Of a stretch of DNA of 64,000 nt, positions 4,583-27,800 are shown piece by piece (within the stretch, counting starts at the first letter, position 1; each line of letters starts with the position of its first letter). The position numbers and the translations under genes were made by a program. The stretch lies in the NCBI RefSeq assembly GCF_009914755.1, contig NC_060934.1; one strand, written 5' to 3'. Under the pieces are notes generated by a model, which made no database searches, was not told where the DNA came from, and saw only the letters and a program-made list of their open reading frames with translations. Origin of the DNA: the human T2T-CHM13v2.0 reference genome, Homo sapiens.

Positions 4583-4693
4583 CTGGTAAAAAATGTGGGC
4601 AGATAAATATACATTATAATTACTCAGGACCCTGATGAATTTCTACATTTCTAAATGGCAAGGTCAACTTTAAATGTTTAAAAATGTTTATAC

Positions 4694-4955
4694 TTTGGGT
4701 AGCAGAGGCAGACAGATCACTGGAGGTCAGGAGTTGGAGACCAGCCTGGCCAACATTGTGAAACCTTGTCTCTACTAAAAACATAAAAATTAGCCGGGCA
4801 TGGCGGCGTCTGCCTGTACTCCCAGCTACCTGGGAGGTTGATGCAGAAGAATGGCTTGAAACTGAATGTGGAGGATGCAGTGAGCTGAGATCACCACACT
4901 ACACTCCAGCCTGGGCGACAGAGCTAGATTGTCTCAAATCGAACAAACAACAATA
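4694..4955 (+). mobile_element. 5'-truncated Alu (paralogue at about 62948-63210)
   Basis: Alu body lacking its 5' end. Confidence 0.9.
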
Positions 4956-6099
4956 AGAGTTTATACATTTTGTTTTATGAAAAATCTCAACTCTAGTTGT
5001 TACTTAGAATTGCTATTATTCCACAGAAGTTCCTTAAGTACTATTTTTGTACTAAACTAAGAGAAGGAATATGTACACTGTCATGGAGAGTACAAATATA
5101 TTCCCGTCATTTTAAGATCCCTTTACAGCATAAAGAGAATTCTAATTTTCTAAAACATTTAGCGAAAAAAAGAATGTCAATGATTTGCAAGCTTTCCAAA
5201 TGAAGGGCATGAATTCCAGCTCATGCTGCTTCCTCACTGGGAATCTGGCTCTATGATAATAAACTAAGTCATCAACGACACACTTCTTTCAACAATAAAG
5301 CAAAGATTGAAATGTTTATTTTCCGTGGTTTTGCTATTTCTTGGGGCTTACGAAAGAAACGCTTAGTCAGAATAGAGAGGGTGGATGACAATACCATGAA
5401 ATTAAAGGTGAGAGGTGAAGGAGAACATTTTATTGTATCACTAGTATTTTAAATATAAAGATTGCATCTTCATGAATACGGGGCTTTTGGAGCCCATCTT
5501 AGCACTTCTCCCCAGGTACGTTCCATGCCTATCATTTTATTGAAGTTGCTTGTATACCTATCAGTCTCACCTAGTAGTTAAATGGCTCCTCTAGTTGGCT
5601 CTTACATTTCTCTACTGCATCTTGCCTTGAGTCGATTCTAAAGACATGTTTGATGAAAGAAGGTAAATACCAGTCACATGTGAACAGGGCTGCATCTAGA
5701 AAGCTGCTCTATCAACGAAATCATTAGAAAAATATGGTTTACTCAGTGTACAAATTTTAGGAAATTTCTCTATTACACGTGCTAGTTTGAATATGTGTGT
5801 TATTTTCAAAAACATAAAATGAATATATAATTTTTGAATACATGTGTGTATATATATATGATATATATATATATATGTTAACATCACACAGTAGACTTAA
5901 CTCATGGCAAAGATTTTTTCTGAAGCACCTGCAGAAATCAGTCTTCTTTCCAGTTTCGAAAACCCCAACATGGGCGAAAGAGGATCCTTTGGATGCCAGA
6001 TAGTGCATGAAGCACATTGGGTTACAGTAATTTTAATATAGTTCATATTCATAATTCACAGTGAGGAAACCTGAAAGTTTCTCGAAGCTATCAATGAAT

Positions 6100-6300
6100 G
6101 AAAGGTGGGGCAGGGCCGCTGTGGGGGCGGGGCCTTGTGAGCCAGTGCCTGGACTCCCACATCACAAATGGAAGGGCGGCGCGTGGAGGGAACTCAAGGC
6201 CTGATTGGTTCCTCCTAAGCAGGACACGATCTGGCTGGCAGGGCAACTGGCCTTCAGTTAGTGCCTTCAGTGGGTGCCTTCAGTTGGTGGCATTTGGTTG
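6100..6300 (+). promoter_or_regulatory. Promoter-like head of array unit 1 (GC box, inverted CCAAT, MYB-type CAACTG/CAGTTG)
   Basis: GGGGCGGGG at 6124-6132, CTGATTGGTT at 6201-6210, CAACTG at 6244-6249; similar motifs head the other units. Confidence 0.5.
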
Positions 6301-24888: not shown

Positions 24889-25034
24889 TACAGAAATGAC
24901 TACTTCCCTACCAATCTTTATAGTTACAGAGCTAAAGACCATCAAAAACATCATCATCTTTAAATATAAAATCAACAATCACTGTTCTGAGTATCATAGT
25001 AAATCAAATGCATTTCTTTTTTTTAACCCCGTTA

Positions 25035-26435
25035 TCTTTTCCTCCTTAGCACTTATCTCCTAATATTCAATATAACTTATTTGTTTTGTTAATTTGTCTC
25101 TCCTACCAGAAGTAAGCTTCATGGGGGCACAATTATTTTTCCTGTTATTTTTCATTGCTGTGCCCTTAGCACTTAGAACAGTGTCTGGCACATACTGAGA
25201 ACCTAAATATTCAATAAATATTTGTTGAATGAATAAACTCTGCAGGGAAAAACAGGTACAAAAGTGATGGAGACAAGGGTAGGAGCAAGATGGCTTAATG
25301 AATATCATTTTATATCACTTTGACTCTGAACTATGTGACTGTAGTACCAATATATTTTTTAATTAAATTAAGGAAACAATAGATGGAATGTAAAATTTCT
25401 ATCTTTATCAAAACAATATTTTTGCTACTGGGGTTAATAAAATCACTCTATGCTTGACTTCCATCTGGAATCTTGTTGTACTGTTGCACTGAAAACAGGC
25501 TCAGTTTTAGATTGGAGGAGTTGGGGGAGAGGAAAGGTAGGAAGAGAAATATATTTTGTCTTCTAGCAAATACGTTAGAGACACAGAAATAATTAAAATG
25601 TGGTCCCTGGCCTCCAGGAGCTCAATGACTAGTAATTGAATCAATCAATATTTAACATTTGATATAATATTAATGTACTCAGAATATCATTCACACTTAT
25701 TCATATACATACATATGATATTTCAATTTGAGCAATTATAAACATTGCAAATTTTTCTATGTATTATTTACTGCTGCATAAAAAAGGCAACCATGTTCCT
25801 TTTTCTTTTCAGTTGAAATTCAGAATAAGAAACCATGCAGTAGATAGACAGAGATTAAAATATCAGCTTACTACTGATAAAAGCTAGCCTGGAGAATATT
25901 GCTCAGGTGGTAAAGAGGCACAATGATATGTTACATGCAAATGAATATCAATCATCTGTTGGAGTAAAATAAAAACTGTACTAACAGTTATGCAAAGATT
26001 CAGAGAATATATCACCTATCCACCCTGTTTGGGCAAAACACTTAAGAAAGTAATCAAGACAGGGACTTGAAGATGGAACCATGAGAAAAGGATGGTGGTG
26101 AGCAGAGAAATGACTCCAAGTGGGGGATGGGGGAGTGTCAAAGGCAAAGACACTTTAAACAGAACAGATACACTTCAAGGGAAAAACTAATAATCTAAAG
26201 TTCAAAATATTAAACTATCTTAACAAAATCTAGCAGCTACGTAACTAGATGCAAAACATGAAAATATTCGAAGGTCTCATCTTATTGGGATGAAGGGGAA
26301 AGCAATGGACAAATAGAATCTTAGTGCGGAAAAATATCTAAAAACTTGTTTTCCCATGAAAATGGCAAAAAAAGAAGATAACCATGAGAGGAACTGTAGC
26401 AGTCTTTTTCAGTTGAGTTTCCAAATCAATAGGGG
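25035..26435 (+). repeat. Duplicated ~1.4 kb block, copy 1
   Basis: Colinear with 50072-51500. Confidence 0.93.
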
Positions 26436-27720
26436 GCGGGGTGTCGGGGAGAAGAATGAATTTCAAATCAGAAAAAGATAAGAAAGTCTGGGTGAAGCCA
26501 ACAGTTAAATAAAGATGAAGTACAATGTAAGACAGAAGGAATAAATCACATACATCAATTGTTATAATAAATGTGATCAGCCTACATACTTCTATTAGGA
26601 CAGAAACTATCACATTGAATCGAAATCTGTTTATACATTCTTTTTGCAAGAAGAACACTTTAAAACAAATAATAAAGATAAGTAGATAAAGGTAAAAAGT
26701 AAAGAGATTTGAGGAAAACTCAACAAAAAGAAAGCATGAATGGCAATATTAATGTCAGGCGAATTGAAATCAATAGTTATAAGTATATTTCCAAATAAAT
26801 GGAATCATTGTTAAGATAAAAGCCTGTTTTTTGAAGAAAATAGAAGTAAAAAATCTGTATGTACCAATAATACAGAGCAAAATATGTAACTTTCAAACAA
26901 TTAGAAAAAAAACTTGGATAAAAATATAATTAAAGTAGGCACTTTTAATACACACCTCTTAAGATTCTCACTTGTCTCTGTAATCCCAGCACTTTGTGAG
27001 GCCGAGACAGGCAGATCACCTGAGGTCAGGAGTTCGAGACCAGCCTGGCCAACATGGTGAAACCTCGTCTCTACCAAAAGTATAAAAAAAAATTAGCTGG
27101 GCATCGTGGTGGGTGCCTGTAATCCCAGCTACTCGGGAGGCTGAGGCAGGAGAATCGCTTGAACCTAGGAGGTGGAGGTTGAAGTGAGCCGAGATAGCGC
27201 CACTGCACTCCAGCCTGGGTTATAGAGCAAGACTCCATCTCAAAAAATAATAATAAATAAAAATTAAAAAAGAATCTAACTTGTCTAACAGACAGAAAAT
27301 AGAGAGGCTCATAAAGGACTTGAATAATGTAATCAATACACTCAATTTCATATCTTAAAACTTCTCACTACACAATACATATTTTTACCTATAATCACCA
27401 AACACGTCCAAAAATGTTTTATGTTGGGCCACAAGGAAACCTTAATACATTTTGAGTAGGAGAGTTTTACCAAACATATTATTTAGTCATAAAAATACAG
27501 ACAAAATAATTCCAACTACTTAGAAATTAAGAAATACAGTGATTTAAAAAAAGAAATACAGAGGTAAATAACTCTTGGAATAAACAGGAAATAAACAGAT
27601 TTCACAGCATCTAAAAAGCAATAAGCAAGAAAAAACCATATCCCAGTTCCAAGGATGAAAAAGCCCAAAATGAACTACAGAAAAATATATAGCACTAAAT
27701 AATAAGATAGTTTTTTAGAT
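26150..27720 (+). mobile_element. Ancient L1M ORF1/ORF2-EN remnant interrupted by Alu (26970-27270)
   Basis: A-rich decayed L1 phrases (GGCAATATTAATGTCAG, GTATGTACCAATAATACAG, GGGCCACAAGGAAACCTTAATACATTT). Confidence 0.65.
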
Positions 27721-27800
27721 GTTAGTTTCTTAATTTCAAAAAATCATTATACAAATATGTTTTCACACAGATTTTATCAGTAGGTTGGGGATTTACTCAC

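What the first reader, a model, noticed from the sequence alone, without database searches (positions are those of the whole stretch)
4583..27800. The SelO-like gene is split by a tandem array and an APBB1IP fragment; several 3' exons are not visible
Seen: between the ...RQKQL exon (27801) and the terminal exon (4582) lie 10 kb of tandem array and a copy of the 3' end of APBB1IP. I could not find the expected intervening SelO segments (KLGL, DF/YTxTFR, NPxxVLxNW). Inferred: duplication-driven rearrangement deleted or displaced these exons. This either killed the gene or followed its death, with a repeat-based transcription unit taking over the locus.
Basis: partly seen in the sequence, partly recalled or inferred. 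Interest (0 to 1): 0.7.

Follow-up and report, generated by a model that had tools for sequence, protein, structure and literature searches.

The report
Duplicated fragments of dead SELO2 gene
The apparent split gene is two pieces from different duplicated copies of a dead human gene already known to be lost (SELO2, catalogued next door as SELENOOLP); it likely died in the ancestor of monkeys and apes before the younger duplications, so this is mostly ordinary duplication debris.

Summary
In detail: a 10.4-kb array of ~1.85-kb units (5701-16095) and an APBB1IP 3' copy (17035-21150) lie between exon 12 (27801) and a terminal exon (4582), with no detectable intervening exons. The reading changes. 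The gene is SELO2, a 19-exon SelO paralogue with full-length proteins in galago, lemurs and tarsier. Its in-order copy lies at window 91-124 kb, head-to-head with PDSS1, and holds the NPRYVLRNW exon (94396). The window's 5' exons are a younger duplicate (K2P 0.06-0.07) that lost exon 17 and exons 18-19 in two mapped deletions. The 4582 exon is an orphan of an older duplication (K2P 0.17), which left the gene whole. Exons 14-16 (KLGL, DFTMTF) are absent from every chr10 copy and survive only in a chr9 retrocopy. Both main copies share a frameshift and seven replacements at near-invariant sites, so the gene likely died before the younger duplications. Annotated lncRNAs start in the array unit and use the orphan exons. 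The unit also lies 25-37 kb from FRG1 copies (17 of 20 sites). Loss of SELO2 in humans is in print; the mapping and dating appear new.

The parts
4421..4582 (-). Orphan SELO2 terminal exon (E19, residues 552-591), called T1; annotated as the last exon of LINC03028
   Evidence: over 1320 columns around the exon K2P is 0.059 to T2 (62838), 0.084 to TC and 0.173 to T3 (91145)
4583..5703 (-). Remnant of SELO2 intron 18, ending sharply at the array
   Evidence: matches 91146-92255 at about 80%; junction alignment
5571..5708 (-). LINC03028 exon 2, which straddles the junction: acceptor from the array, body from SELO2 intron 18
   Evidence: annotation given with the finding; AG/GT sites; junction
5701..16095 (.). 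Tandem array of ~1.85-kb units (longer variants ~2.6 kb); five GC-rich segments (55-62% GC) and a 13-14-bp minisatellite
   Evidence: relatives near FRG1 copies
5929..6210 (.). LINC03028 exon 1 (5929-6042, -) and the adjacent GC-box/CCAAT-like stretch; four annotated lncRNA 5' ends map to unit positions 775-978, two on each strand
   Evidence: promoter activity is inferred, not tested
16096..17034 (.). Filler between array and APBB1IP copy; its non-repeat part occurs only in the three FAM238 copies
   Evidence: 3 matches genome-wide
17035..21150 (+). Copy of the APBB1IP 3' end (FAM238A)
   Evidence: K2P 0.11-0.13 to APBB1IP and 0.03-0.06 to the other FAM238 copies
21150..23237 (.). Intergenic flank of the second (X2) class
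   Evidence: K2P 0.070 to 81990-83587 against 0.128 to -4053..-2462
23230..23245 (.). Deletion junction joining copy-B 83587 to 97262 (13.7 kb); removes this copy's exon 18 and its own exon 19
23240..25024 (-). Remnant of SELO2 intron 17
   Evidence: 85-87% to 97262-98729
25020..25030 (.). Deletion junction joining copy-B 98729 to 103802 (5.1 kb); removes exon 17
25028..27800 (-). Interval after exon 12, colinear with copy B and lacking exons 14-16
   Evidence: no indel of 15 or more bases between A and B; profile scores
27801..27895 (-). Exon 12 (ends RQKQL); 5' part and acceptor lost
29070..29152 (-). Exon 11 (NTDN); six replacements at near-invariant sites private to this copy, including D354H, plus P366S
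30530..30605 (-). Exon 10; carries A329V, M332K, G335S and a one-base insertion, all shared with copy B
32330..32400 (-). Exon 9; donor GT lost
35125..35214 (-). Exon 8
37728..37931 (-). Exons 5 and 4, the only chr10 copies found; exon 5 is joined directly to the middle of an LTR-like repeat, with exons 6-7 deleted
   Evidence: the repeat class (MLT1-like) is recalled
44015..44520 (-). Exons 3 (5' end lost, frameshift, stop) and 2
48804..49401 (-). Exon 1 (frameshift) and a partial copy of the promoter region shared with PDSS1, ending 84 bases short of the annotated PDSS1 start
49409..51493 (-). Extra copy of the post-exon-12 interval (B 103150-105217), fused to the promoter copy
62627..62838 (-). 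Second orphan terminal exon (T2, frameshifted); last exon of LOC102724202
   Evidence: annotation given with the finding

Best explanation
The window holds pieces of two different duplicates of the dead SELO2 (SELENOOLP) gene, with the array and the APBB1IP copy lying beyond the 3' end of the 5'-exon copy, and the gene likely died before the younger duplications scattered it. Step 1 (sequence shown, order inferred): a ~17.6-kb block holding the APBB1IP 3' end and the SELO2 last exon was duplicated in tandem (K2P 0.11-0.18) and the array sits at the joint; each gene would have kept a complete copy, leaving one orphan APBB1IP end (FAM238) and one orphan SELO2 exon (4582). Step 2 (inferred): the gene was inactivated, with loss of exons 14-16 and a frameshift in exon 10, at a pairwise-equivalent divergence of about 0.09-0.10, likely near the origin of monkeys and apes. 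Step 3 (shown): a younger wave (K2P 0.05-0.09) copied the unit, giving window copy A, inverted copy C (26.95-26.99 Mb) and fragment D (27.35 Mb). Step 4 (shown): copy A then lost exon 17 and exons 18-19 in two private deletions, so its 5' exons now face the older orphan exon. Step 5 (annotation plus inference): a GC-rich segment of the array unit likely acts as a two-way promoter, and its transcripts splice into the orphan exons.
For: In-order copy B: exons 1-3, 8-12, 17, 18, 19 at 124301 to 91026. Two age classes in 8 aligned blocks: T1-T3 0.173, T1-T2 0.059, A-B 0.061-0.073. The flank beside FAM238A is of the X2 class (0.070 against 0.128). Both A deletion junctions align base by base. Exons 14-16 score at most 2.5 bits in 314 kb of chr10 against 40-47 bits in the chr9 retrocopy. 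Genome-wide searches find only chr9 (one weak chrX hit at E 1.9), while the same kind of DNA search finds exon 18 and four exon-19 copies. B 103144-106582 is colinear with A, the extra piece and D. Of 142 near-invariant sites, A and B share 7 identical replacements plus a one-base insertion; 7 living orthologues differ at 1-4 (P 0.027 for 7 or more); the retrocopy keeps the ancestral exon-10 residues and frame. Death estimate 0.085-0.099, range 0.067-0.135. Around the coding exon the two classes differ less than in the intron (T1-T3 5/114 against 230/1359), as expected if T3 stayed under selection after step 1. No monkey or ape name among 51 of 51, 120 of 201 and 120 of 2248 proteins listed.
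Against: No other primate genome could be read, so dates rest on paralogue distances and recalled calibrations (human-macaque ~0.065, human-marmoset ~0.11-0.12). The death estimate overlaps the low end of the old duplication (0.11-0.14 in APBB1IP blocks). V587L is shared by all four terminal exons. Copy B exons 17-19 look less decayed than its other exons (1 of 44 against 19 of 142 near-invariant sites, P 0.048, post hoc), which a single death does not predict. The 5 T1-T3 codon differences are all non-synonymous, so gene conversion could explain the low exon divergence equally well. About 30 bases before exon 17 are seen only in B, so a B-only deletion there is not excluded. Exons 6-7 are gone from A and B with different breakpoints, so their loss cannot be placed. 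Exon 13 is untestable. Protein lists show one name per cluster and some have none.
Confidence: 0.72

Rival explanations
1. The gene died before the old APBB1IP/terminal-exon duplication, so every rearrangement here, array included, fell on a pseudogene.
For: V587L is shared by T1, T2, T3 and TC but found in 1 of 105 orthologue rows. The upper death estimate (0.135) reaches the APBB1IP-block distances (0.11-0.14).
Against: Central death estimate 0.085-0.099 is below T1-T3 0.17. T3 has no change at sites 95% conserved, and the exon diverged less than the intron.
Confidence: 0.12
2. The younger duplication wave itself killed the gene: exons 13-16 were lost at the 103150 breakpoint in one complex event.
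For: The duplication joint 103150|124648 lies only about 36 bases from the exon-17 start, and those bases are seen only in B.
Against: A frameshift and 7 replacements at near-invariant sites are shared by A and B, so decay began before they split; it also needs two breakpoints to coincide within about 1% of the 3.5-kb interval.
Confidence: 0.08
3. One reading: the array and APBB1IP fragment inserted into one gene between exon 12 and its own last exon (4582), displaced the exons between and killed it.
For: The order in the window looks so, and the array joins intron 18 sharply at ~5701.
Against: The 4582 region is 0.173 from the exon that continues into exons 18 and 17, while the 5' exons are 0.06-0.07 from copy B. 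Intron-17 remnants and two deletion junctions lie on the far side of FAM238A. Copy B has the same array and APBB1IP piece yet keeps exons 17-19 in order.
Confidence: 0.05

Closest known systems
SELO2 of Dudkiewicz et al. 2012 (PMC3281104; passages read)
   Same: Second metazoan SelO paralogue, not a selenoprotein, ending Cxx, stated to be lost in humans.
   Different: The paper calls it missing from primates and rodents; full-length proteins are listed here for galago, ring-tailed lemur, mouse lemur, tarsier, squirrels, chinchilla, degu and kangaroo rat. The passages read give no human locus. It is not the fish selenoprotein SELENOO2/SelO2 (PMC13134290, PMC3316567; passages).
SELENOOLP (RefSeq transcribed pseudogene, window 89675-102797)
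   Same: Same gene; the annotated span covers exons 18-19 of copy B.
   Different: The remnant runs on to 124301, and window copy A, copies C and D and the chr9 retrocopy lie outside that span; copy A has no row in the table supplied.
SelO/YdiU protein adenylyltransferases (Pfam PF02696; PDB 6EAC)
   Same: The galago orthologue aligns over residues 97-591 (E 5e-109) and keeps the LKG, SxxRE, HGVxNTDN and D-x-G motifs.
   Different: No human chr10 copy has a complete set of exons or an open frame.
FRG1 segmental-duplication block (4q35, chr20, acrocentric short arms)
   Same: Holds about two units of the same repeat; 17 of 20 extra-chr10 sites lie 25-37 kb from an FRG1 exon.
   Different: In the 10 kb read at 4q35 the match stops at the array and includes no SELO2 or APBB1IP sequence; the direction of transfer is unresolved.

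Membership tests
SelO family (PF02696) | Profile match of the exons | tested here: met
   Exon 11 scores 26 bits (cut-off 22.8), exon 5 scores 19.5, copy-B exon 12 none; orthologues carry PF02696.
SELO2 clade | C-terminal Cxx motif without selenocysteine | tested here: met
   Cys at residue 589 in 99 of 104 orthologue rows; T1, T2 and T3 keep the Cys codon.
SELO2 clade | Distant from SELENOO, close to the mammalian SelO-like proteins | tested here: met
   Galago protein: 52-90% to window exons against 34-63% to the chr22 exons.
SELO2 clade | Placement in the SELO2 branch of a family tree; identity with the named horse, dog, cow or chicken loci | not tested
   No tree was built and the hit names did not show those locus numbers.
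SELO2 clade | Orthologues lie between APBB1IP and PDSS1 in other mammals | not testable with these tools
   No other eukaryote genome was available.
Active SelO adenylyltransferase | Intact frame with the exon-6 SSVRE helix, HGVxNTDN loop and DYG motif | tested here: not met
   Exon 6 absent from all chr10 copies; frameshift before the loop in A and B, D354H in A, stop at 355 in B.
Segmental duplication (recalled definition: 1 kb or more, 90% or more identity) | Length and identity of the younger blocks | tested here: met
   Blocks of 1.2-6.8 kb at 88-94%.
Segmental duplication (recalled definition: 1 kb or more, 90% or more identity) | Identity of the older APBB1IP/terminal-exon block | tested here: not met
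   80-87%: same kind of event, older than the usual threshold.
Processed pseudogene (chr9 copy) | Exons joined without introns | tested here: met
   Residues 31-586 within 1.9 kb, continuous across exon borders.
Processed pseudogene (chr9 copy) | Poly(A) tail and target-site duplication | not tested
   Not examined.
Bidirectional promoter repeat | Divergent transcript starts at one unit position | tested here: inconclusive
   Four annotated 5' ends map to unit positions 775 (-), 889 (-), 923 (+), 978 (+); these are annotation, one model is predicted only, and FAM238A starts outside the array.

The most novel reading that the evidence does not exclude
The ~1.85-kb unit is a mobile two-way promoter that arrived at the joint of the first duplication, captured the orphan SELO2 and APBB1IP exons to found the LINC03028/FAM238 lncRNA family, and was shared with the FRG1 block before it spread; its arrival began the loss, specific to monkeys and apes, of a SelO enzyme conserved from sea anemone to tarsier that sits head-to-head with the coenzyme-Q gene PDSS1.
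Probability: 0.2. Interest if true: 0.55.

Novelty: new member of a known kind. Interest (0 to 1): 0.33.

Why it matters
It places a known loss (SELO2) at a human locus, narrows it from 'primates' to probably monkeys and apes, and gives an order of events that primate genomes can test at once. It shows how unrelated duplicate fragments can mimic one interrupted gene. The orthologue keeps every SelO motif and no functional study of it turned up in my searches, so lemur or tarsier SELO2 offers a way to ask what simians lost. Nothing here points to a working human protein.

Tried and rejected
Motif scan and tblastn for the missing exons in 4583-27800: nothing. Pfam SelO search of the whole genome found only the four chr22 SELENOO exons, none of the chr10 pieces, so it is too blunt for these exons. 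A peptide from LINC03028 carrying the SELO2 tail: rejected, a stop lies just before the exon-19 frame in the 414-base spliced model. A peptide from copy-B exons 18-19: unlikely, the exon-18 donor GT is lost. Shared deletion of exons 6-7: not shown, A and B breakpoints differ; a genome-wide DNA search found those exons only on chr9. Donor of the array: unresolved; the first 4q35 unit nests among chr10 units (0.12-0.13 to B68864/C75479, 249 columns), the second groups with it in a 300-column tree, and the filler has no outside match. One row (C69311) in the second tree is misaligned. A fuzzy unit search timed out and was redone with blastn. No fold or complex job was run, as the human copies have no open frame. 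Literature: 9 searches found no paper on this locus's structure or the timing of loss; the library lacks most subscription papers, and supplements were searched for one paper only (PMC13122177, nothing relevant).
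Full report
Observation. The exon ending RQKQL has its donor at 27801 and a terminal exon has its acceptor at 4582, both on the minus strand. Between them lie an array of ~1.85-kb units from 5701 to 16095 and a copy of the APBB1IP 3' end from 17035 to 21150. Exon profiles find nothing above 0.5 bits in 4583-27800, with adequate power for exons 14, 15, 16 and 18 but not for the short exons 13 and 17.

The gene. The translated 4582 exon retrieved 51 mammalian SelO-like proteins among 58 candidates. Full-length ones include galago (591 aa), mouse lemur, ring-tailed lemur and tarsier; a search with galago residues 408-512 added colugo, treeshrew, rabbit, several non-murid rodents, marsupials, monotremes and a bird (120 listed of 201). 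No monkey or ape name appears in those lists or among 120 listed of 2248 shorter proteins; clusters show one name and some none, so this absence is suggestive only. The galago protein aligns to solved bacterial SelO (6EAC, E 5e-109) with its motifs intact. It fits SELO2 of Dudkiewicz et al. 2012 (PMC3281104, passages read), who state it was lost in humans and is missing from primates. Gaps among isoforms and the human exon borders give a 19-exon model.

Where the exons are. I read 174 kb around the window and two further chr10 stretches of 70 kb. Copy B, from 124301 to 91026, holds exons 1-3, 8-12, 17, 18 (NPRYVLRNW, 94396) and 19 in order, head-to-head with PDSS1. Window copy A holds exons 1-5 and 8-12. 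Copy C (26.95-26.99 Mb, inverted) and fragment D (27.35 Mb) hold further pieces. Exons 14-16, with KLGL and DFTMTF, score at most 2.5 bits in all chr10 sequence read and 40-47 bits in an intronless copy on chr9. Genome-wide searches return only that copy (one chrX hit at E 1.9). As a control, the same DNA search with the next part of the retrocopy found exon 18 once and exon 19 four times but missed the short exon 17. Exons 6-7 are also missing from chr10.

The 4582 exon is not the partner of the 27801 exon. Paralogous blocks fall into two classes. The region around 4582 (T1) is 0.059 from T2 (62838), 0.084 from TC and 0.173 from T3 (91145), the exon that continues into exons 18 and 17. Copy A's 5' part is 0.061-0.073 from copy B. 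The flank at 21633-23237 is 0.070 from B's and 0.128 from the flank beside the real APBB1IP. Two junctions explain the gap: at ~23238 A jumps from B 83587 to B 97262, removing exon 18 and A's own exon 19; at ~25026 it jumps from B 98729 to B 103802, removing exon 17. The array meets intron 18 sharply at ~5701. So an older tandem duplication of the block from the APBB1IP 3' exons to SELO2 intron 18 gave each gene a complete copy and one orphan, with the array at the joint; B has the same arrangement and keeps its last three exons.

When the gene died. At 142 sites conserved in at least 95% of 114 orthologue sequences (isoforms included, so not independent; 23 positions at deleted, frameshifted or split codons were skipped), A and B share 7 identical replacements, differ from the consensus in different ways at 5, and have 14 and 7 private ones; 7 living orthologues differ at 1-4. 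They also share a one-base insertion at the end of exon 10, where the retrocopy keeps the frame. Scaling shared to private changes gives a pairwise-equivalent age of 0.085-0.099, range 0.067-0.135 over four countings. That is older than the A-B split and probably younger than the old duplication (0.11-0.18). With recalled calibrations it falls near the split of New and Old World monkeys. The interval that should hold exons 13-16 is colinear in A, B, D and the extra piece at 49409-51493, with no indel of 15 bases between A and B, so the loss likely predates these copies.

Results against this reading. V587L is in all four terminal exons. Copy B exons 17-19 changed at 1 of 44 near-invariant sites against 19 of 142 elsewhere (P 0.048, noticed after the fact). 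T1 and T3 differ at only 5 of 114 coding bases against 230 of 1359 nearby; T2-T3 is 9/113 and TC-T3 15/113. This suits selection on T3 after the old duplication, but the 5 changes are all non-synonymous, so conversion is as likely. About 30 bases before exon 17 are seen only in B.

The array. Units differ by 0.05-0.29. Four annotated lncRNA 5' ends map to unit positions 775-978 around a GC-box and CCAAT-like stretch, two per strand. LINC03028 runs from the first unit through an exon spanning the junction into the SELO2 acceptor at 4582; a stop precedes the exon-19 frame. One passage of PMC4750114 lists LINC00202-1, LINC00202-2 and LINC00264 in one spermatogenesis cluster (that these are the FAM238 genes is recalled). 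The unit also matches 20 sites on chr4, 9, 13, 14, 15, 20, 21 and 22 at about 75% (40 of 60 candidates scored); 17 of the 20 lie 25-37 kb from an FRG1 exon, the 3 on chr9 have no FRG1 hit. The 4q35 piece is a colinear two-unit match at 0.155-0.164. Passages of PMC1852401 on 4q35 evolution do not mention 10p.

Known or new. The pseudogene is annotated next door and the loss is in print. Nine literature searches found no account of this locus's structure, of the narrower timing, or of the link to the FRG1 block. I saw passages only of PMC3281104, PMC13134290, PMC3316567, PMC13122177 (plus one supplement search), PMC4750114 and PMC1852401, and listings of the rest; gene-loss catalogues in unread supplements may already hold it. 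Verdict: real, largely ordinary duplication debris of a known loss, with a testable order of events. Confidence by part: two different duplicates 0.92; death before the younger wave 0.88; death after the older duplication 0.65. Interest 0.33.

Noticed in passing
L016 (G000:C9:111200575-111202574, - strand): Intronless SELO2 retrocopy, K2P 0.20 from copy B over 738 columns, with an Alu inside. It is the only human record found of exons 6-7 and 14-16, appears to skip exon 13 as 3 orthologue isoforms do, and seems to read TGA at the terminal Cys codon after a one-base insertion, probably by chance.
   Followed up: partly
window-coordinate 124301-124732 (L015): SELO2 exon 1 lies about 430 bases from the annotated PDSS1 start, head-to-head across a CpG-rich stretch (GC 0.72, CpG o/e 0.83). 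The orthologue N-terminus is Arg-rich and lacks acidic residues, like a mitochondrial targeting peptide (by eye).
   Followed up: no
L032 (G000:C4:193279987-193283919) and 19 other sites: The array unit travels with the FRG1 duplication block; direction of transfer unknown.
   Followed up: partly
G000:C10:26947478-26989204 and 27346906-27358764: Inverted copy C and fragment D. C lost its own exons 18-19 by a deletion with breakpoints different from A's (B 89125|97089). D shares A's 103150|124648 joint.
   Followed up: partly
window 4170-4700: Divergence between the two terminal-exon classes is about 9% here and about 20% in 4701-5700: selection or a conversion tract.
   Followed up: partly
window 55933-59691 and 60875-61723: Insertions, partly L1-like, present in the T2 block and absent from the T1 block; useful as dating markers.
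   Followed up: no
protein lists: No mouse or rat name appears although squirrels, chinchilla, degu and kangaroo rat do, hinting at a separate loss in murids.
   Followed up: no
window 5984-6484, 9251-9750, 15533-16032: Three of the four RefSeq enhancers given with the finding fall in array units.
   Followed up: no
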